This document shows, piece after piece, positions 1-5,947 of a stretch of DNA of 5,947 nucleotides. The position numbers were made by a program, and so were the translations under genes. How positions within the stretch are numbered: position 1 is the stretch's first letter; the number at the start of each line of letters is the position of its first letter. Source of the stretch: a virus (taxonomy: Duplodnaviria; Heunggongvirae; Uroviricota; Caudoviricetes); IMG/VR virus record IMGVR_UViG_2913167280_000007, positions 1 to 5,947 of that record. One strand, written 5' to 3'. The notes under the pieces were generated by a model. That model ran no database searches and was not told the DNA's origin. It saw only the letters and a program-made list of their open reading frames with translations.

Positions 1-2073
1 CGGGCTTGGGGGCACTCCAGTGCAAGTCTCAGTAATTCGCGTCAGGTCGTTCAAGATGATACCGGGCTGTGGTGGTTTTACACCGGAGCATTTCCATTGT
101 TCGTAACTCCTGGAACAAATCCAGCTCTAGATCCTCTTTGGTATTGTGTAGGATTGCTAAATGGTAAGGAAGTAAATGATCTTTCTTCATGGTGCGATGT
201 GGTCTCCAACGTTGATGTAACCAGCCAGATTAGCAAGTATTTCAGAACCCTTTCTTACCTAAAATTTAACGCGATTTGTTACGGTGAAATTAAGATCTCA
301 TCTCAGGTAAGCACATTTGATGTTGCTTATGATATGAGCAAGTTAACCATCAACTTAGACCTTTCTGTTGTTGATACCACAATCACAAATAATGGATCTG
401 TTCTCCGAGTTACTGAACCAAATGAACAAGTTTTAACTGGGTTTAATGCTGGGTTAACTAGTATCAATCAGGATACGTCAAGCATTTTACTGCAATTTGG
501 GCAATGCACATTTTCCTATGTTGCTGAAGATAATGTGAATGACAGGGCTTATCTCAGATCAACTGGACAGGTAATCAGAAAAACAGATACACTGGTGCTT
601 ACTGCGACTGACAGAAGCATTTTCAGGAGCACACCTTCACTTTATGCATTGAATGGAACGGTTACCGCGAGCGTTAAACCATTAACTAATCGCATTACAT
701 GTTATCTGCCAAAAGTTGTATTAACAGGATCTTACCCTGGTACAGCACGCATAGAAAATATCGTTCAGTGTAGCAGGAATAATGTGAAATTTATTGGTGG
801 TGCATATGACCACCGCTCAACATCTATGGTAGCACACTCTTTTTTATCCATTTCGCAATGTGCATTCATAGAGATCGAATCCTTGCTGGCAAGTAATAAC
901 TTTGCAGAAAGCAGTCAGTACGCAATAAGCCTGTTTAGCACTGCATTTGTTCACATCCATAACTGTGCATTCCCTTACGGGTGGGCATTTGTTGATGGCA
1001 ATTTTATGCGCGACACAGTCATCGAGAAATGCACCATTGCTAATGCCTTTGGTGCTCATGCGATGGCCTGGAACATGACAGTACGAGATTGTAAGTTGCA
1101 GGGGGTAACCAGCAACGTTGACTTTACTACTATTGCTGGCGGCATCCATCTTACTGGAGGTGGGCAACTTCTTGTGGAAGACATCGAGTACTGGTACTCA
1201 GGTGGTGCAGCAGCAGCAGAATATCTAGTAGGGTGCAGACAGGATTACGGTCAGGGGTGGGAAGGGGATGTAACTGTAAGAAGAGTTAAAGTGTATGCCA
1301 ATGGGCTACCAAACCCTTTTATTCTGGTATATATGGCAGGTGGTTACCCGAATACTATGGATTATACGCGCCCGTATGCTTATCTCGGTAAGAAGATAAT
1401 TGTTCAAGACGTTACCATATACAAAGCTTTGATTGACCGCGCGCCAGCAAGCGTGATCATTGCACCTGTATGGTTCGCAAACCCTTCAAGTCCATCAATG
1501 CAATGGCGCCTTGCAGATGATGTTCTTATCGAGCGCATTAAAGCTGATGTTTCAGGATTTGGCGGCCTGAGGCTGAACCTTCAGATCCCAGGGGTGAAGA
1601 CAACTAATTACGTAGCTAAAACAGTGAATTTCACCGTTCGGGAATGTGATTTTACTACTGGTGGGATCACAATGAGCCTGGCCCAACCAGGCTCTGATGG
1701 GTCAAATATAACAAACCGGGTTCTTTTCGAAGATAATATTGGACCAGTATCAGGTACTCTCAGTGGAACTGTGAACGATAAATGGGAATTTAGGCGCTGC
1801 ACTATTGGAGCGCTTAACTCAGCAGGGAGCTTAAACGCCATAAAGGTATACCTAAAAAACTGCGATATCTCTGCTGCTTTGTGTGGAGGATCTAGCAGTG
1901 GTGAACAATGGTATTATTACGATAGCCATATCACTACGGCATCAACCGTTGATCTTGGCTCCCGTGCCGTTTACTGCCATGGTAATACCTGCCCTGTTGG
2001 AGGGGCTATCTCTGGGCGGACTCAGCCAGAGTGGTGGGAGTACAGAGATACGTCTATCTTTAGAACATCATAA
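1..2073 (+). CDS. Tailspike / tail-fibre protein, C-terminal receptor-binding portion (5'-truncated by the window edge; the listed ORF 97..2073 is the same frame, which is open from base 1)
   Basis: Frame 1 has no stop from base 1 to TAA at 2071-2073, so the gene starts upstream of the window. The product is rich in N/T/S/G/V with many short alternating hydrophobic repeats and scattered Cys, which is compatible with a parallel beta-helix fold (inference). It sits directly upstream of an O-antigen-modifying acyltransferase and a lysis cassette, as in epsilon15-like phages. Its stop is followed immediately by a strong terminator. No specific homologue was recognised by eye. Confidence 0.55.
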   Translation, partial: RAWGHSSASLSNSRQVVQDDTGLWWFYTGAFPLFVTPGTNPALDPLWYCVGLLNGKEVNDLSSWCDVVSNVDVTSQISKYFRTLSYLKFNAICYGEIKISSQVSTFDVAYDMSKLTINLDLSVVDTTITNNGSVLRVTEPNEQVLTGFNAGLTSINQDTSSILLQFGQCTFSYVAEDNVNDRAYLRSTGQVIRKTDTLVLTATDRSIFRSTPSLYALNGTVTASVKPLTNRITCYLPKVVLTGSYPGTARIENIVQCSRNNVKFIGGAYDHRSTSMVAHSFLSISQCAFIEIESLLASNNFAESSQYAISLFSTAFVHIHNCAFPYGWAFVDGNFMRDTVIEKCTIANAFGAHAMAWNMTVRDCKLQGVTSNVDFTTIAGGIHLTGGGQLLVEDIEYWYSGGAAAAEYLVGCRQDYGQGWEGDVTVRRVKVYANGLPNPFILVYMAGGYPNTMDYTRPYAYLGKKIIVQDVTIYKALIDRAPASVIIAPVWFANPSSPSMQWRLADDVLIERIKADVSGFGGLRLNLQIPGVKTTNYVAKTVNFTVRECDFTTGGITMSLAQPGSDGSNITNRVLFEDNIGPVSGTLSGTVNDKWEFRRCTIGALNSAGSLNAIKVYLKNCDISAALCGGSSSGEQWYYYDSHITTASTVDLGSRAVYCHGNTCPVGGAISGRTQPEWWEYRDTSIFRTS

Positions 2074-2103
2074 AAAAAATGGCCCGTTAAGGGCCATTTT
2101 TTT
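2074..2103. terminator. Bidirectional rho-independent terminator between the convergent tailspike and acyltransferase genes
   Basis: A-run 2074-2079, GC stem GGCCC (2081-2085), loop GTTAA, stem GGGCC (2091-2095), T-run 2097-2103. Read on either strand this gives a hairpin followed by a U-tract. It lies between two convergent stop codons. Confidence 0.75.
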
Positions 2104-3247
2104 AGATAGTTGTTGTATTCTTTTTTAGCAATGTTGCGCTTAGGTTTTTCCCAGTTTTTATGAATGGGGTTTCAACCATTTTGTATGTAATTATTGATGC
2201 TATTACAGTAACAAATAATATCATCGGGAATAAAGCATAGAATTCTGTTCTGGTAACGCCATAAAAATCATAAATATTAAAAACAGTAAATGCTGAGTAC
2301 AGTATAAATCCATGAGTAAGGTATATGCTGTAGCTTATGTCTCCTAAATAAACTAGGCCATTTTTGCGAAGAGCGCCAAAGATATCATTTCCAGATGAAA
2401 TTAAAATGAAAAGCATTCCAACAAGCAGCATTTGATATAAAGAGTAGCTAGGAGTCTGTGTAAATGCTATGGCGCATATAATAATTGCAAAAATAGAACA
2501 TGTATTACTTTTTAAGAAATTGATTTTTAGCTTAGTCACGTAATATGCAATCCCACCTATCGCAAATAAAATGAATAGCTCGTAGCGCACAGACGTTGCA
2601 TAAAGACATAAAATCAAAACAACAGCGGACAGTGCGCCGTATATTTTTGAGGAACCACCTTTTTTAATGATAAGGCTTAGTAGTGGGAGTGATATGTAAA
2701 ACAGAGCCTCATAGAATAAAGTCCACTGCACGCCGCTGATGCTTCTGCCAATGTTGTACCCATTAAGAGGCTGAAGGAAGAAAGCCATTCCGGCAGCTAA
2801 AGATTTAACAAGAGAAGATAGCGAGGTCTCCCCATCATATGTAACAAAGTAAACGCTGTATATTATTGCCAGCATGAGGATGTATAATGGATATATTCTG
2901 AATATCCTGCCAGCCGCTAACTCAGGCCACGATCTTACACCTTTAGATATTTTGCCTACAAAAAGGTACCCGGTAATCATGAAAAAAAGTGAAACAGGAA
3001 TTGATCCAAGATTTCCAACAAATAGACTATTTACTGCCCATGTTCCTTCAGCCTTCCAGTTGTACGTCAAGACGAAGTGATGAAGAAGCACCATTGGTGC
3101 CAATAGCCCTCTGAAACCATCAATAGTTATGTTTCTGTTATTGCTGGTATTTATTTCAGCAGAGTTAAAAACAAAGCTTGCAACGACAATGCAGATCGTA
3201 AAAATTGTGATTAATACCAAATTATCGAAGTACATCATTCTCGCCAT
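2102..3247 (-). CDS. Acyltransferase family 3 integral membrane protein, probable O-antigen / polysaccharide O-acetyltransferase (serotype-conversion moron)
   Basis: The 381-aa product is hydrophobic with multiple predicted TM segments. It carries the family signatures R-x-x-x-x-D-G-x-R-G...H-H ('RNITIDGFRGLLAPMVLLHH') and F-F-x-I-[ST]-G-[YF]-L ('FFMITGYLF'), as in OafA/Oac-type acyltransferases. GC is roughly 30%, far below the neighbouring lysis genes. It is on the opposite strand between the tailspike and the lysis cassette. The start codon is uncertain (ATG at 3245-3247 or the ATG ATG at 3233-3238) and no clear SD is present. Confidence 0.8.
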   Translation of the reverse strand: MARMMYFDNLVLITIFTICIVVASFVFNSAEINTSNNRNITIDGFRGLLAPMVLLHHFVLTYNWKAEGTWAVNSLFVGNLGSIPVSLFFMITGYLFVGKISKGVRSWPELAAGRIFRIYPLYILMLAIIYSVYFVTYDGETSLSSLVKSLAAGMAFFLQPLNGYNIGRSISGVQWTLFYEALFYISLPLLSLIIKKGGSSKIYGALSAVVLILCLYATSVRYELFILFAIGGIAYYVTKLKINFLKSNTCSIFAIIICAIAFTQTPSYSLYQMLLVGMLFILISSGNDIFGALRKNGLVYLGDISYSIYLTHGFILYSAFTVFNIYDFYGVTRTEFYALFPMILFVTVIASIITYKMVETPFIKTGKNLSATLLKKNTTTI

Positions 3248-3392
3248 TGTAAAAAGTAAATAAACATTTTATCACCCTTTAGGTAATTTCGATAGGAACA
3301 ATCCGAACGAAATCTATCCGTATAAGGATTATCATGTATCATAAACTCACAAACTAAGGGGGGTTCATTATGCATACTTTACGGTGGTCACT
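3248..3392. promoter_or_regulatory. Divergent intergenic region, expected to hold the acyltransferase promoter (leftward) and the lysis-cassette promoter / RBS (rightward)
   Basis: A 145-bp AT-rich non-coding gap between divergently oriented genes. It contains a strong SD-like AAGGGGGG (3354-3361) and -10-like hexamers (TATAAG 3321-3326; TGTATCAT 3335-3342), but no convincing -35/-10 pair at canonical spacing. The call rests on position only. Confidence 0.3.
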
Positions 3393-3797
3393 ATGTCTGC
3401 ATCCATGACGGTTTCAGACATCAATCATGGGCTTAGCTTGTGTGCTCTTGGTGCCTGGTTGGTTGGCGTTCCGTCTGAGGTGGTGATCGGTGGTCTGGCG
3501 GGTGCGGTAATTTTTGTTACCTTTGCGGCAGAGTATCCGATAAAGCGGCGCTTGCTCCTGGCTGTCATCAGCTTCTTCTGCGGCCTCCTCTTCTACAAAC
3601 CAACGGCAACCATTCTCATTGGCTTCGCAGCCATCCTCCCCGGCGTAACATCTGACATGTTCGAAAAAGGTGTTGTGTTCTCTGCCGGTGCTTTCGTCTC
3701 TTCAATCGTGGCTGTCAGGTTTGGCGTCTGGTTGTATCACCGTTCTGAAAATCCGCGCGACCTTATCCCGGGGAGAAAAGACGATGACCAGTCCTGA
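3393..3797 (+). CDS. Small multi-pass membrane protein, putative holin / holin-associated protein (first gene of the lysis cassette)
   Basis: ORF in frame with GTG 3384, ATG 3393 and ATG 3405. ATG 3393 has a GGTGG SD-like element 5 nt upstream. Product is about 134 aa with 3-4 hydrophobic helices and a charged C-terminal tail (RSENPRDLIPGRKDDDQS). Its stop TGA (3795-3797) overlaps the start of the next gene. Position immediately upstream of the endolysin supports a lysis role. Start codon is uncertain. Confidence 0.5.
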   Translation: MSASMTVSDINHGLSLCALGAWLVGVPSEVVIGGLAGAVIFVTFAAEYPIKRRLLLAVISFFCGLLFYKPTATILIGFAAILPGVTSDMFEKGVVFSAGAFVSSIVAVRFGVWLYHRSENPRDLIPGRKDDDQS

Positions 3798-4071
3798 ACT
3801 CATTCTTAACGCTGTTATCTGCGGCGCTATAGCCATTCGCGTTCTTCTGTTTCGTCGTGACGGGTCACGCCATCGCCGCTGGGGTGGATGGCTCGCATAC
3901 CTGCTAATTGTCTCCGCCGCCAGCGTCCCTATCCGCACATTCTATGGCTATTACATCAGCGCAGATTGGTCAGAGGTAATCATTAAAGCGGTGTTCCTTG
4001 CTGCGCTTATTAAAACCAAGGGGAATGTGGTTCAGATATTCAAATTAACGAGGTCTCAACATGGACATTAA
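3784..4071 (+). CDS. Small membrane protein, putative holin (95 aa)
   Basis: ATG 3784 is preceded by SD GGGAGA (3771-3776). Product MTSPELILNAVICGAIAIRVLLF...: two or three TM helices, a positively charged loop (RRDGSRHRRWGG) and a basic C-terminus. The 5' end overlaps the previous gene by 14 nt and the 3' end overlaps the endolysin start (ATGGACATTAA). The listed ORF start at 3670 is an upstream in-frame extension with no RBS. Confidence 0.55.
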   Translation: MTSPELILNAVICGAIAIRVLLFRRDGSRHRRWGGWLAYLLIVSAASVPIRTFYGYYISADWSEVIIKAVFLAALIKTKGNVVQIFKLTRSQHGH

Positions 4072-4687
4072 CCAGTTCCAGCGCGCTGCTGGTATCAGTA
4101 CTGAGCTGGCGACGCGCTGGCATCCACACATTACCGCCGCCATGCAGGAGTTTGGCATTACTAATCCTGACGATCAGGCGATGTTTATCGCGCAGACCGG
4201 GCATGAGAGTACAGGCTTTACGCGCCTGGTGGAGAGCTTCAACTACAGCGTTGCTGGTCTTGCTGACTTCATTCGCACCGGGCGCATTACTCAACAGCAG
4301 GCGAATGCGCTTGGCCGCCGCCAGGGTGAGCCGTCGCTTCCTCTGGAGTGCCAGCGTGCGATCGCCAATCTGGTGTACAGCAAGCGCATGGGAAACAAGG
4401 GCCCGACTGATGGATGGTTCTACCGTGGGCGTGGGCTTATTCAGATCACTGGCCTGAACAATTATCGCGCCTGCGGGAACGCTATCAAAGCCGATCTGGT
4501 GTCTCAGCCTGAACTGCTGGCACAGGATGCGTATGCCGCCCGCAGCGCTGCCTGGTTCTACTCTGTGAATGGCTGCCTGAAATATACCGGTGACCTGGTG
4601 CGAGTCACGCAGATTATCAACGGTGGCCAGAACGGAATTGATGACCGCCGGGCGCGCTATGCTGCTGCGAAAAAGGCGCTGGTATGA
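4061..4687 (+). CDS. Endolysin, glycoside hydrolase family 19 (chitinase-like lysozyme)
   Basis: 208 aa. SD ACGAGG (4048-4053) lies 7 nt before ATG 4061. Motifs 'DQAMFIAQTGHESTGF', 'GRGLIQITGLNNY' and 'VTQIINGGQNGIDDR' match the GH19 catalytic core as I recall it from epsilon15-like Salmonella phage endolysins. No N-terminal TM or signal-anchor, so it is a canonical holin-dependent soluble endolysin. The stop overlaps the Rz start (ATGA at 4684-4687). Confidence 0.9.
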   Translation: MDINQFQRAAGISTELATRWHPHITAAMQEFGITNPDDQAMFIAQTGHESTGFTRLVESFNYSVAGLADFIRTGRITQQQANALGRRQGEPSLPLECQRAIANLVYSKRMGNKGPTDGWFYRGRGLIQITGLNNYRACGNAIKADLVSQPELLAQDAYAARSAAWFYSVNGCLKYTGDLVRVTQIINGGQNGIDDRRARYAAAKKALV

Positions 4688-5184
4688 TTTTGGCATTCAT
4701 AAAAGCGTACTGGAGGCAGCTGATCATTGTTGTGTTGCTCTCTGCGCTGGTAGTCGGTGGCATCGTTGCATGGAAGGTTCACGGCAGCCAACAGTATGAT
4801 GCCGGATATGCACAGGCAAAGGCAGACCGTAAAGCCGAAGATGATAAAACTCGCCAGAAGGATGAGCAGGAGAAAGCGACCAATGAACGTGAAGCTCAGC
4901 AAAGGATCGACCAGGCGCGCAATGATGCTCTTGATGCTGCCGCTCGCGCTGGCAGGTTGCAGCAGCAGCTCATTGCCATCGACAAGCAGCTCAGGCAGTA
5001 TAACGCCACTGTCGGCGCTGGGCCGTCAGCCGCAGACACCGGAATTTTGCTTGCCGACGTGCTCCGCCAATCTCTCGAAAGAAACCGAGTCCTGGCAGAA
5101 TACGCTGACCGGGCAGCCGAAGCCGGGCGGGTCTGCGAACGTCAGTACGACACCCTGACGAAACAGGTCACAGTTTCCCGGTGA
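4684..5184 (+). CDS. Rz: Rz-like i-spanin (inner-membrane spanin subunit)
   Basis: 166 aa. N-terminal TM helix (LIIVVLLSALVVGGIVAW), then a charged periplasmic domain predicted to be coiled coil (rich in A/E/K/R/Q) with a single Cys near the C-terminus. Translationally coupled to the endolysin, and it contains the embedded +1-frame Rz1 gene. Confidence 0.85.
   Translation: MILAFIKAYWRQLIIVVLLSALVVGGIVAWKVHGSQQYDAGYAQAKADRKAEDDKTRQKDEQEKATNEREAQQRIDQARNDALDAAARAGRLQQQLIAIDKQLRQYNATVGAGPSAADTGILLADVLRQSLERNRVLAEYADRAAEAGRVCERQYDTLTKQVTVSR
4922..5158 (+). CDS. Rz1: Rz1-like o-spanin (outer-membrane lipoprotein), embedded in the +1 frame of Rz
   Basis: ATG ATG at 4922-4927 begins MMLLMLPLALAG|C: a short signal peptide with lipobox L-A-G-C. 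The mature part is Ser/Pro/Thr-rich with further Cys (EFCLPTC), as is typical of Rz1. It lies entirely inside Rz. The listed ORF 4757..5158 is the same frame with a non-coding upstream extension. Confidence 0.8.
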   Translation: MMLLMLPLALAGCSSSSLPSTSSSGSITPLSALGRQPQTPEFCLPTCSANLSKETESWQNTLTGQPKPGGSANVSTTP

Positions 5185-5300
5185 CGGTATATAAAACGGT
5201 ACGCCAAAAAACGGATTTAATAAAGTTGTTACCATTCAATTGGTTATGCTTACCGTAAATAATTGAGTGGAATGATTTAATTCCTGCACTATGAATGAAC

Positions 5301-5330
5301 AAAACCCTCTGTTGCTACAGAGGGTTTTTT
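5301..5330 (+). terminator. Rho-independent terminator ending the lysis operon
   Basis: AAAA (5301-5304), stem CCCTCTG (5305-5311), loop TTGCTA, stem CAGAGGG (5318-5324), T-run 5325-5330. It lies about 120 nt downstream of the Rz stop. Confidence 0.7.
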
Positions 5331-5407
5331 ATATTGCTGACTAAAGTTAGCAATATAAAAAAGCCTGTAATCCTCACGAATCATAGGCTTGAAGTTACTG
5401 ACAGCGA

Positions 5408-5947
5408 TTAATTAAACCAACTGTCCGATTTATTCTCTTCTGCTTTACCCACGCTTTTCATCAAATCGCGACCACCTTCTGTCACATTCCTGTTAGCGTC
5501 AGCTTCAGATTGCACGACATCAGTTTGCGCGGCTTTGTGCTTCAGCTCCTGATCGATAAATTCGTTCTCGCGCTTAACGCGGGCTTCTTCTTTCGCCAGC
5601 GCCAGTTTTTGTTTCTGAATCTCTAAGCTGCGCAGCTCATCTTCATAACTTTGATCGCGTTTTTTATCCGCAGTGGCTTCGGCGTCCAGTTTATCCTGGC
5701 GAGCTTTCTTATCCGCTGCTGCTGCCGCCGCTCTTTTATTGGCGGCGGCCTGAGCGTTTGCGCGACGCTGTTTCTCTTGTTGAATTTCCCTGTTGCGCTC
5801 CGCGACCCATTCGTCATGCTGCCTTTGCTCTTCATTTTTACCTTGCTGTTCCGCTTCTGCGACAGCCGAGAGTTGATCCTGCAATGATGAGGCGGCAGCC
5901 GGATAGCTTAAGGAGGCTAAGATGGCGCAAAGAAAAACTTTCTTCAT
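5408..5947 (-). CDS. Secreted (Sec signal peptide) highly charged coiled-coil protein of unknown function; candidate moron at the lambda bor position
   Basis: 179 aa. N-terminal MKKVFLCAILASLSYPAAASS looks like a signal peptide with an A-x-A type cleavage site. The remainder is E/K/R/Q/A-rich, predicted helical or coiled coil, and includes a poly-Ala tract (RAAAAAADKK). The start ATG is at the very window edge (5945-5947). It converges on the lysis operon. No family was recognised. Confidence 0.6.
   Translation of the reverse strand: MKKVFLCAILASLSYPAAASSLQDQLSAVAEAEQQGKNEEQRQHDEWVAERNREIQQEKQRRANAQAAANKRAAAAAADKKARQDKLDAEATADKKRDQSYEDELRSLEIQKQKLALAKEEARVKRENEFIDQELKHKAAQTDVVQSEADANRNVTEGGRDLMKSVGKAEENKSDSWFN

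What the first reader, a model, noticed from the sequence alone, without database searches (positions are those of the whole stretch)
1..5947. Mosaic late region: AT-rich receptor / surface-modification module fused to a GC-rich lysis module
Bases ~1-100 are about 54% GC. The rest of the tailspike is about 40%, the acyltransferase about 30%, and the lysis cassette about 55-60% (estimated by eye over 60-100-nt samples). The sharpest change falls at the two terminator-flanked boundaries of the acyltransferase gene. This suggests the receptor-binding domain and the acyltransferase were acquired horizontally as cargo on a conserved phage backbone. The order tailspike, O-antigen modifier, holin, GH19 endolysin, Rz/Rz1 matches what I recall for epsilon15-like phages (epsilon15, phiV10, SPN1S).
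Basis: partly seen in the sequence, partly recalled or inferred. Interest (0 to 1): 0.45.

Follow-up and report, generated by a model that had tools for sequence, protein, structure and literature searches.

The report
ε15-like prophage end with swapped tailspike cassette
This is the right-hand end of an ε15-type prophage sitting next to the guaA gene of a non-coli Escherichia; its host-recognition tailspike and a neighbouring O-antigen acyltransferase gene were swapped in as one block from other phages, which is a well-known way for such phages to change host range, so the finding is real but ordinary.

Summary
Measured GC is 44% for the tailspike body, 36% for the acyltransferase, 55% for the lysis genes, 35% for the att spacer and 50% for yfgI. 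The strongest step is at base 3381. Only one end of the acyltransferase gene has a terminator.

That block (tailspike body, bidirectional terminator, reverse-strand AT3 acyltransferase) has no relative in ε15 or phiV10. It is collinear at 77% with P22-like E. coli prophages, and the same gene pair also sits in a baseplate-type phage.

ε15, phiV10, BUCT554 and an E. coli prophage have the same gene order and GC pattern, each with different O-antigen genes in the slot.

- Bases 1–19 are the end of an ISEc24 insertion sequence that splits the tailspike gene at its anchor/body joint. The conserved anchor lies outside the window.
- Bases 5262–5277 are the attR core, a copy of the guaA 3′ end.
- Bases 5408–5947 are the host gene yfgI.

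Verdict: a new member of a known kind (Uetakevirus prophage with a serotype-conversion slot). Interest is low to moderate.

The parts
1..19 (.). Right terminal inverted repeat of an ISEc24-like IS3-family element (…GGGGGCACTCCA). The rest of the IS lies upstream of the window and contig start.
   Evidence: L017 carries the same prophage at 99.83% and has the full 1.23 kb IS at L017 4721-5951. That IS is 99.2% identical to annotated ISEc24 copies. The independent assembly L018 starts 10 nt deeper in the IS. GC is 74%.
20..2073 (+). Tailspike body, the receptor-binding β-helix part, equal to residues 198-882 of the restored protein. It is cut off from its ε15-type anchor by the IS.
   Evidence: Amino-acid identity to tailspikes that carry other anchors is 84% (P22 head-binding PF09008), 72% (PF18668, baseplate phage) and 31% (Ackermannviridae TSPs). 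The AF2 model has pLDDT 83, and its best PDB neighbours are β-helix tailspike depolymerases.
2073..2103 (.). Bidirectional intrinsic terminator shared by the convergent tailspike and acyltransferase genes.
   Evidence: A perfect 13-bp inverted repeat flanked by an A-run and a T-run. Folding energy is -19.3 and -18.6 kcal/mol on the two strands, with z -6.2 and -7.2.
2102..3247 (-). Stand-alone AT3 (Acyl_transf_3) membrane acyltransferase of 381 aa (378 by the NCBI start); a putative O-antigen O-acetyltransferase.
   Evidence: Pfam PF01757 at E 3e-31, full length. It is 34% identical to Sf101 OacB. The motifs FRGLLAPMVLLHH, FFMITG and RIYPLY and about 9-10 hydrophobic segments are present. An exact match is WP_165383338 / RZN40112 from Escherichia sp. 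E2593.
3248..3392 (.). Divergent intergenic region belonging to the ε15-type backbone. It holds the upstream signals for the reverse-strand cargo gene and for the lysis operon.
   Evidence: Backbone homology starts at 3249 (BUCT554, SPNIS2, PAT1). The region is conserved among Uetakeviruses that carry AT3, gtrABC or oac cargo. A promoter-like site lies on the minus strand at 3275-3246. There is no terminator.
3393..3797 (+). gp23-like membrane protein (Phage_holin_8), the first gene of the lysis cassette.
   Evidence: Pfam PF16931 at 7e-11. It is syntenic with ε15 gp23 and phiV10 p27.
3784..4071 (+). Holin (Phage_holin_3_7), 95 aa.
   Evidence: Pfam PF05449 at 4e-27. It is syntenic with the annotated holins of ε15 and phiV10.
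4061..4687 (+). GH19 endolysin, 208 aa.
   Evidence: Pfam PF00182 at 5e-11. The DNA is 74-82% identical to the endolysin genes of ε15, SPN1S and TL-2011b.
4684..5184 (+). Rz-type i-spanin (DUF2514), 166 aa.
   Evidence: Pfam PF10721 at 2e-42.
4883..5158 (+). Rz1 o-spanin lipoprotein, embedded in Rz in the +1 frame.
   Evidence: It has the lipobox LALAGC and is near-identical to the annotated Rz1 of ε15 and phiV10.
5185..5261 (.). AT-rich phage arm of attR, the remnant of attP.
   Evidence: Homology to ε15 and phiV10 continues to 5277-5279. In those phages this stretch carries the annotated IHF and Int sites between Rz and int.
5262..5277 (.). att core ATTGAGTGGAATGATT, a copy of the last codons of guaA. 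It has one G fewer than the canonical core.
   Evidence: K-12 homology starts at 5262 and phage homology ends at 5277-5279. The canonical core attgagtgggaatgatt of phiV10, ε15 and ZX5 is given in PMC9782041.
5301..5328 (.). Host bidirectional terminator of the guaA-yfgI spacer. A similar copy exists in the phages' attP regions.
   Evidence: Folding energy is -18 kcal/mol on both strands. It is conserved in K-12.
5408..5947 (-). Host chromosomal gene yfgI (DUF5384), complete. The window ends at its start codon.
   Evidence: Pfam PF17358 at 2e-61. It matches 5,419 of 5,426 E. coli genomes and is 93.3% identical in DNA to K-12 yfgI. The source contig continues with yfgH, yfgG, pdeF, ppx and ppk.

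Best explanation
The window is the right end of a Uetakevirus (ε15/phiV10-like) prophage, integrated at the 3' end of guaA in a non-coli Escherichia (Escherichia sp. E2593 / E10V5).

A conserved ε15-type backbone lies on both sides of a roughly 3.2 kb replaceable cassette. On one side are the virion genes and the tailspike N-terminal anchor. On the other are the intergenic control region, two holin-type genes, the GH19 endolysin, Rz/Rz1 and attP. The cassette is the tailspike body, a bidirectional terminator and a reverse-strand AT3 acyltransferase gene.

The cassette was acquired by recombination from another phage lineage. Its closest known copies are in P22-like E. coli prophages. The left joint falls at the short anchor/body linker motif (…AFDxxG|S/T-A…). 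The right joint falls at the start codon of the acyltransferase gene.

Inferred mechanism:
- In virions, the β-helix tailspike binds and depolymerises a particular O-antigen.
- In lysogens, the AT3 protein acetylates that O-antigen so the same tailspike no longer works. This gives serotype conversion and superinfection exclusion, as shown for phiV10 Oac and Sf6 Oac.
- The low GC of the cassette (36-44%, against 55% for the lysis genes) travels with it and is typical of O-antigen genes.

In this lineage an ISEc24 element has since split the tailspike gene exactly at the anchor/body joint. The prophage therefore probably cannot make adsorbing virions, while the acyltransferase gene remains intact.

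What is shown: composition, homology breakpoints, gene identities, the IS, and the att site. What is inferred: the acetylation target, the tailspike's enzymatic activity, the exclusion function, and the direction of transfer.
For: Backbone:
- L017 12-4607 matches ε15 15897-20498 at 77.5%.
- The tailspike anchor, aa 1-199, is 67-75% identical to ε15, phiV10 and J6, and the homology stops at aa 199-200.
- Window 3249/3270/3317-5279 is 74-82% identical to Uetakeviruses.

Cargo:
- There is no DNA match for bases 1-3300 or 20-3300 in 50,697 phage records or 5,426 complete E. coli genomes.
- Window 70-3129 is collinear at 77.4% with the P22-like prophages L008-L011. Identity runs 67-85% in 200-nt bins, with no step at the gene boundary.
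- The same convergent gene pair occurs in the baseplate phage L001, with the body at 72% and the acyltransferase at 55%.

The slot:
- It holds oac in phiV10, an O-antigen polymerase plus inhibitor in ε15, gtrABC in BUCT554, two hypothetical genes in J6 and another AT3 in L025. All are on the reverse strand, and all show the same GC pattern.
- The intergenic region is conserved right up to the cargo start codon.

Gene functions:
- Pfam hits.
- OacB similarity.
- AT3 motifs.
- β-helix depolymerase fold.
- Published roles of phage Oac proteins (PMC9558356; the phiV10 record note).
- Tailspike RBD exchange with a genus-conserved anchor, and variable DNA downstream of the RBP gene in Lederberg- and Uetakeviruses (PMC10408124).

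Att site.

IS.

The arrangement is identical in four independent assemblies.
Against: - No experiment links this acyltransferase or this tailspike to any O-antigen. The acyltransferase is only 34% identical to the nearest characterised enzyme (OacB) and has no detectable similarity to phiV10 Oac.
- Body and acyltransferase are not strictly linked. The L004-L007 prophages pair a 78%-identical acyltransferase with a 45%-identical body.
- The direction of transfer (P22-like to ε15-like, or the reverse) is not determined.
- The tailspike anchor and the IS body are documented in L017, a near-identical prophage from another assembly. In the window's own contig only 19 nt of the IS are present.
- No clean target-site duplication flanks the IS (GTA|IS|GTG), so a simple insertion is not proven.
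Confidence: 0.8

Rival explanations
1. The GC differences reflect protein-level constraints, not foreign origin. On this view an integral membrane protein rich in Ile, Phe, Leu, Asn and Lys and a β-helix protein are AT-rich for coding reasons, and the region is vertically inherited.
For: GC2 of the acyltransferase is low at 36%. Every Uetakevirus shows the same pattern in this slot.
Against: GC3 is also low: 36% for the acyltransferase and 38.5% for the tailspike, against 50-65% for the lysis genes. The two holin-type membrane proteins have 49-53% GC. The homology breakpoints are independent of composition.
Confidence: 0.05
2. The cassette was joined to the ε15-type anchor by recombination between two ISEc24 copies, or by an IS-adjacent deletion. 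In that case an intact hybrid tailspike never existed, and the body plus acyltransferase are IS-associated debris rather than a working phage module.
For: The IS sits exactly at the anchor/body homology switch, at aa 197/198. No clean target duplication is seen. Relatives with the same anchor type (P0126, P0127) carry about 53 extra residues at this point.
Against: Removing the IS restores an in-frame 882-aa ORF. Its joint (…AFDDQG-SASLSNSRQVVQDDTGLWWFYTG) has the same motif and spacing as uninterrupted relatives with other anchors. The right-hand joint at 3247-3249 has no IS. The other ISEc24 copies examined all lie at a single site and also lack an obvious duplication, so the missing duplication is uninformative.
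Confidence: 0.1
3. The mosaic is an assembly artefact, a chimeric contig joining unrelated pieces at a repeat.
For: The window starts at a contig end inside a repeat (the IS).
Against: The same 5,947-base arrangement occurs at 99.8-100% identity in four independent assemblies. In one of them (L017) it lies inside a 169 kb contig that spans the IS and the upstream phage genes.
Confidence: 0.01

Closest known systems
Escherichia phage phiV10 (Uetakevirus), region tailspike - oac - lysis cassette - attP/int
   Same: Identical gene order and strands. The ε15-type tailspike anchor is 73% identical. A reverse-strand AT3 gene sits between the tailspike and the lysis genes. The lysis cassette is 74% identical in DNA. 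The att core at the guaA 3' end is the same. The GC pattern is the same (oac 31%, body 42%, lysis 53-55%).
   Different: The tailspike body and the acyltransferase have no detectable similarity to those of phiV10. Here the tailspike gene is broken by an IS, and the att core lacks one G.
Salmonella phage ε15 (type Uetakevirus)
   Same: The backbone is collinear at about 75-77% on both sides of the cassette. The anchor is 75% identical. The lysis cassette and the attP position are the same.
   Different: ε15 carries an O-antigen polymerase (gp21) and a polymerase inhibitor (gp22) in the slot, not an acyltransferase, and its tailspike body is unrelated.
P22-like (Lederbergvirus-type) E. coli prophages L008-L011, and Shigella phages Sf6 and Sf101 (tailspike next to oac/oacB)
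   Same: These hold the closest copies of the cassette: tailspike body 84% aa, acyltransferase 77% aa, collinear DNA 77%, the same convergent arrangement with a short spacer, and a position at the prophage end. Sf101 OacB is the nearest characterised acyltransferase, at 34%.
   Different: They have a P22 head-binding N-terminal domain instead of the ε15 anchor, a different backbone (gp16, gp20 and gp7 ejection proteins) and different integration sites.
Ackermannviridae tailspikes (Dickeya phage RC-2014/Limestone group, Enterobacter phage EspM4VN)
   Same: They are the nearest tailspikes in sequenced phage genomes, at 31% over nearly the whole body, E 3e-84.
   Different: These are lytic myoviruses with a PF18668-type N-terminus and no adjacent acyltransferase.

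Membership tests
Uetakevirus (ε15-like) prophage | Collinear nucleotide homology of structural genes upstream of the tailspike | tested here: met
   L017 12-4607 matches ε15 at 77.5%, and also BUCT554 at 77%. This DNA lies outside the window, in a 99.8%-identical prophage.
Uetakevirus (ε15-like) prophage | Lysis cassette in the order gp23-like membrane protein, holin, GH19 endolysin, Rz with embedded Rz1 | tested here: met
   Pfam hits. The DNA is 74-82% identical. Rz1 is near-identical.
Uetakevirus (ε15-like) prophage | ε15-type N-terminal tailspike anchor | tested here: met
   Residues 1-199 are 67-75% identical to ε15, phiV10 and J6. The anchor lies upstream of the window and is separated from the body by an IS.
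Uetakevirus (ε15-like) prophage | Integration at the 3' end of guaA with core attgagtgggaatgatt | tested here: met
   The core lies at 5262-5277 with one G missing. Host homology starts there, and yfgI follows.
Uetakevirus (ε15-like) prophage | P4-type integrase at the other prophage end | not tested
   It lies outside the window and outside the loci fetched.
AT3 (PF01757) O-antigen O-acetyltransferases of temperate phages (Oac/OacB type) | Full-length Acyl_transf_3 domain without a fused SGNH domain | tested here: met
   PF01757 at E 3e-31, covering profile positions 3-325 of 326. The protein is 381 aa.
AT3 (PF01757) O-antigen O-acetyltransferases of temperate phages (Oac/OacB type) | Conserved AT3 motifs: the TM1 Arg/His motif, FFxI(S/T)G and RIxPxY | tested here: met
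   FRGLLAPMVLLHH (aa 45-57), FFMITG (aa 88) and RIYPLY (aa 117) were read from the sequence. Assigning them as AT3 motifs rests on my own knowledge of the family.
AT3 (PF01757) O-antigen O-acetyltransferases of temperate phages (Oac/OacB type) | About 10 transmembrane helices | tested here: inconclusive
   A crude hydropathy scan gives 9-10 segments. No dedicated topology predictor was available.
AT3 (PF01757) O-antigen O-acetyltransferases of temperate phages (Oac/OacB type) | Acetylates the O-antigen and blocks the cognate phage | not testable with these tools
   Inferred from position and from the phiV10, Sf6 and Sf101 precedents.
β-helix tailspike depolymerases | Modular protein: genus-specific anchor plus an exchangeable body | tested here: met
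   The same body is found behind ε15-type, PF09008 and PF18668 N-termini.
β-helix tailspike depolymerases | Right-handed parallel β-helix fold | tested here: met
   The AF2 model has pLDDT 83.3 and pTM 0.84. Foldseek hits are 8x8m (E 1e-15, TMq 0.60), 7w1c, 4ru4, 4ru5 and 4y9v. The Pfam Beta_helix hit is sub-threshold only.
β-helix tailspike depolymerases | Polysaccharide-cleaving active site and substrate | not testable with these tools
   There is no sequence-level PDB relative, and the catalytic residues are not assignable.
ISEc24 (IS3 family) | Near-identity to annotated ISEc24 and TG…CA terminal inverted repeats | tested here: met
   99.2% identity over 1,231 bp in L017. The inverted repeats are TGGAGTG…CACTCCA. 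Window 1-19 is the right end.
ISEc24 (IS3 family) | Short direct target-site duplication | tested here: inconclusive
   The flanks are GTA and GTG. The reference copies fetched all lie at one site and show none either.

The most novel reading that the evidence does not exclude
The tailspike body, its shared bidirectional terminator and the convergent AT3 gene form a self-contained cassette that recognises a receptor and then masks it. The cassette moves as one unit between unrelated temperate-phage chassis: ε15-like podovirus, P22-like podovirus and a baseplate-bearing phage. It docks at a conserved linker motif on one side and at a chassis-resident promoter on the other. On this reading, host-range switching and superinfection immunity are transferred together in a single recombination event.
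Probability: 0.4. Interest if true: 0.4.

Novelty: new member of a known kind. Interest (0 to 1): 0.3.

Why it matters
It is a clean, well-delimited example of how temperate phages of enterobacteria swap their receptor-recognition hardware. It also shows that the O-antigen-modifying gene can travel with the tailspike body across phage genera.

That co-transfer is useful for predicting host range and serotype conversion from prophage sequence, and for engineering reporter or therapeutic phages on the phiV10/ε15 chassis.

It does not change current understanding. Exchange of the tailspike's receptor-binding domain (RBD), serotype-conversion slots next to tailspike genes, and guaA integration of Uetakeviruses are all documented.

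The IS-broken tailspike alongside an intact acyltransferase is a small illustration of a decaying prophage that still keeps a host-beneficial gene.

Tried and rejected
- Megablast and blastn of the left half (1-3300 and 20-3300) against phages and complete E. coli genomes found nothing.
- A genome-contig scan with the acyltransferase found no relative.
- An exact look-up of the NCBI 378-aa acyltransferase failed. The 381-aa version found the source contig.
- The Rfam and tRNA scans of the window were empty, so integration is not at a tRNA.
- A PDB sequence search with the tailspike body was empty. The fold search was informative instead.
- I tried to settle whether the IS made a target-site duplication by fetching other ISEc24 copies. 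All of them (three chromosomal, one plasmid) sit at the same site next to an integrase gene, so they were uninformative.
- I considered bases 1-100 as the conserved tailspike N-terminus and rejected it. The anchor ends upstream of the IS.
- I considered a terminator at 3248-3383 and rejected it.
- I considered an assembly chimera and rejected it.

Full report
**Origin of the window**

The window is identical to the first 5,947 bases of NCBI contig RHJM01000019.1 (assembly GCA_004212315.1). The exact acyltransferase protein is recorded for Escherichia sp. E2593 and E10V5, which NCBI lists as 'unclassified Escherichia'.

The same 5.9 kb occurs at 99.8-100% identity in three further assemblies. 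One of them, L017 (GCA_004745395.1), lies inside a 169 kb contig and supplies the DNA upstream of window base 1. All ten differences between the window and L017 are one-base homopolymer insertions in L017, which look like sequencing errors.

The host genes yfgI and yfgH are 93% and 96% identical to E. coli K-12. That fits an Escherichia lineage outside E. coli proper.

**Check of the observation**

The compositional mosaic is real.

|---|---|---|
| 1-100 | 54.0% (1-19: 74%; 20-100: 49%) | about 54% |
| Tailspike 101-900 | 39.1% | about 40% |
| Tailspike 901-2073 | 46.6% | about 40% |
| Whole tailspike ORF | 44.1% (GC3 38.5%) | about 40% |
| Acyltransferase 2102-3247 | 36.4% (GC3 35.6%) | about 30% |
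| Spacer 3248-3383 | 32% | not given |
| Lysis cassette 3384-5184 | 55.2% (GC3 50-65% per gene) | 55-60% |
| Spacer 5185-5407 | 35% | not given |
| yfgI 5408-5947 | 50% | not given |

- Segmentation places change-points at 2054, 3381 (by far the strongest), 5187 and 5466.
- The acyltransferase estimate was too low and the lysis estimate roughly right.
- The steps at 5187 and 5466 were missed.
- Only one terminator flanks the acyltransferase gene. It is the perfect bidirectional hairpin at 2073-2103, between the convergent tailspike (+) and acyltransferase (-) genes.
- The 3248-3383 side shows no terminator-like structure. It is a divergent upstream region.

**Anatomy**

Pfam assigns the following:
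- Acyl_transf_3 to 2102-3247 (-)
- Phage_holin_8 to 3393-3797
- Phage_holin_3_7 to 3784-4071
- Glyco_hydro_19 to 4061-4687
- DUF2514 (Rz) to 4684-5184
- DUF5384 (YfgI) to 5408-5947 (-)

An embedded Rz1 lipoprotein gene at 4883-5158 is near-identical to the annotated Rz1 of ε15 and phiV10.

The long ORF at 1-2073 is a tailspike body:
- It is 31% identical over its whole length to Ackermannviridae tailspikes.
- It is 84%, 72% and 56-57% identical to metagenomic and prophage tailspikes that carry other N-terminal domains.
- Its AlphaFold model (pLDDT 83, pTM 0.84) matches β-helix tailspike depolymerases best.

*Left end.* In L017 an ISEc24-like IS3-family element of 1.23 kb lies directly upstream of window base 20.
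- It is 99.2% identical to annotated copies and is present in 889 of 5,426 E. coli genomes.
- Window bases 1-19 are its right inverted repeat.
- The contig of the source assembly, and that of L018, break inside this repeat.
- Upstream of the IS lies the first 197 codons of a tailspike gene. These are 67-75% identical to the ε15, phiV10 and J6 anchors, and the homology stops at residue 199-200.
- Removing the IS joins anchor and body in frame into an 882-residue protein.
- So the conserved anchor lies entirely outside the window. The GC-rich first bases are IS sequence, not backbone.

*Right end.*
- Homology to ε15 and phiV10 stops at 5277-5279. Homology to the K-12 guaA-yfgI region starts at 5262.
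- The overlap, ATTGAGTGGAATGATT, is the published attP/attB core of phiV10, ε15 and ZX5 at the 3' end of guaA (PMC9782041), with one G missing.
- Bases 5262-5947 are therefore host DNA, and the window crosses attR.

**Homology breakpoints**

ε15-type backbone:
- L017 12-4607 is collinear with ε15 at 77.5%.
- Window 3249 (BUCT554, SPNIS2, PAT1), 3270 (phiV10) or 3317 (ε15, J6) to 5279 is 74-82% identical to Uetakeviruses.

Cargo:
- Between these two stretches the window has no DNA relative in 50,697 phage records or 5,426 complete E. coli genomes, even with blastn.
- Window 70-3129 is collinear at 77.4% with the P22-like prophages L008-L011.
- That alignment runs through the tailspike body, the terminator and the acyltransferase gene. 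Identity is 67-85% in 200-nt bins with no step at the gene boundary.
- At protein level the acyltransferase homology reaches codon 6.
- The cargo therefore runs from the anchor/body joint to the acyltransferase start codon, about 3.2 kb.

The same convergent pair in other settings, compared with the window:

| Context | Body identity (aa) | Acyltransferase identity (aa) |
|---|---|---|
| P22-like prophages L008-L011 | 84% | 77% |
| Baseplate-bearing phage L001 | 72% | 55% |
| P22-like prophages L004-L007 | 45% | 78% |
| Uetakevirus-like prophage L025 | 43% | 29% |
| T7-like prophage L026 (fused AT3-SGNH) | 44% | 25% |
| phiV10 | no hit | no hit |

- In L004-L007, DNA homology to the window resumes only at about base 1955.
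- The chromosomal flanks of L004 and L008 are 100% identical to E. coli.
- The pair is thus often, but not always, inherited together, and it has crossed phage genera and Escherichia species.

**The slot is a known, general feature**

The annotated records show the same layout in each phage: tailspike (+), reverse-strand O-antigen genes, gp23-like protein, holin, endolysin, Rz/Rz1, attP.

| Phage | Slot content |
|---|---|
| phiV10 | oac ('acetylates the host O-antigen; functions in superinfection immunity') |
| ε15 | O-antigen polymerase plus α-polymerase inhibitor |
| BUCT554 | gtrABC |
| J6 prophage | two unnamed genes |

All show the same GC pattern: body 42-45%, slot genes 26-41%, lysis genes 51-60%.

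The intergenic region next to the slot is conserved up to the cargo start codon, whatever the cargo. This suggests that the upstream signals belong to the backbone.

The literature states that RBDs are exchanged across genera while anchors stay genus-specific. It also states that Lederberg- and Uetakeviruses are variable downstream of the RBP gene (PMC10408124). Phage AT3 proteins such as Sf6 Oac and phiV10 Oac acetylate the O-antigen and block the cognate phage (PMC9558356).

**Mechanism**

Shown:
- The mosaic structure, the breakpoints and the identities of all genes.
- The IS disruption and the attR junction.

Inferred:
- The tailspike body depolymerises a specific O-antigen.
- The AT3 enzyme acetylates that O-antigen in lysogens, giving serotype conversion and exclusion of the same phage type.
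- The two were acquired in one recombination. The left joint used the linker motif (AFDxxG / F-x-x-G-S/T-A, seen in all anchor types). The right joint lies at the slot boundary.
- The IS insertion has since inactivated the tailspike, leaving a probably non-infective prophage that retains the conversion gene.

**Rivals**

- Coding constraints alone cannot explain the low GC3 or the breakpoints.
- Vertical inheritance is contradicted by the nearest relatives lying in P22-like phages.
- An assembly chimera is excluded by four concordant assemblies.
- IS-mediated joining cannot be excluded, because the IS sits at the joint and no clear target duplication is seen. It is disfavoured by the in-frame, natural-looking joint and by the IS-free right boundary.

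**Verdict**

- This is a new member of a known kind: a Uetakevirus prophage carrying a new tailspike-body and AT3 combination in the usual serotype-conversion slot.
- The cross-genus co-transfer of body plus acyltransferase and the IS at the module joint are the only mildly unusual aspects.

Noticed in passing
window 1-19 (and L017 4721-5951): The window and contig start inside the right inverted repeat of an ISEc24-like IS3 element. The IS splits the tailspike gene exactly at the anchor/body joint (residue 197/198). No clean target-site duplication is visible (GTA|IS|GTG).
   Followed up: yes
window 5262-5277: The attR core is ATTGAGTGGAATGATT, one G short of the canonical attgagtgggaatgatt found in ε15, phiV10, J6 and K-12. 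It might impair excision. It is identical in all assemblies of this prophage.
   Followed up: partly
window 5321-5373: The guaA-yfgI spacer carries a 39-nt insertion relative to K-12 and E. coli J6. It forms a 22-nt-arm palindrome (5321-5342 / 5345-5366, 91% complementary) overlapping the terminator's T-tail. It could be a small repeat element or a second hairpin.
   Followed up: partly
window ~1955-3129 vs L004-L007: A second group of P22-like E. coli prophages shares the acyltransferase (78% aa) and the last ~120 nt of the tailspike gene at 80% DNA identity, but its tailspike body is only 45% identical. This marks a recombination breakpoint inside the 3' end of the tailspike gene, so the acyltransferase can also move without the body.
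   Followed up: partly
P0126, P0127 (L025 7001-9811; L026 7001-9790): Intact tailspikes with the same ε15-type anchor and a related body (41-48%) carry about 53 extra residues (…NAIVILPPDGSASDVLIELAKP…KFADGG) exactly where the window lineage has the IS. The shorter joint here could be an alternative recombination joint or a deletion.
   Followed up: partly
L026/L027 7001-11689: A T7-like Enterobacter hormaechei prophage (SLT internal virion protein, different holin and lysozyme) has a related tailspike body followed by a convergent AT3-SGNH fusion acyltransferase of 618 aa. This is the same architecture in yet another phage chassis.
   Followed up: no
window 3249-3383: This intergenic region is conserved among Uetakeviruses that carry quite different cargo (AT3, gtrABC, oac), right up to the cargo start codon. 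It includes a GTGATA -35-like element for the leftward gene, so the slot seems to supply its own upstream signals.
   Followed up: partly
window 70-470 vs 870-1670: Within the tailspike body, identity to the P22-like copies is 67-68% at the 5' end and 80-85% in the middle. GC also differs (39% for 101-900 against 47% for 901-2073). This hints at a further sub-mosaic or at different constraints on the N-terminal subdomain and the β-helix core.
   Followed up: no
window 3238-3247: The start codon of the acyltransferase gene is ambiguous. The ORF allows 381 aa (ATG at 3247), NCBI's RefSeq record uses 378 aa, and a Logan gene call gives 377 aa. The predicted -10 element overlaps the first ATG.
   Followed up: no
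window 20-3300: The cargo block is absent from all 5,426 complete RefSeq E. coli genomes, even by blastn. Yet its closest relatives sit in read-assembled chromosomes whose flanks are 100% identical to E. coli. The module seems rare and perhaps tied to an uncommon O-antigen.
   Followed up: partly
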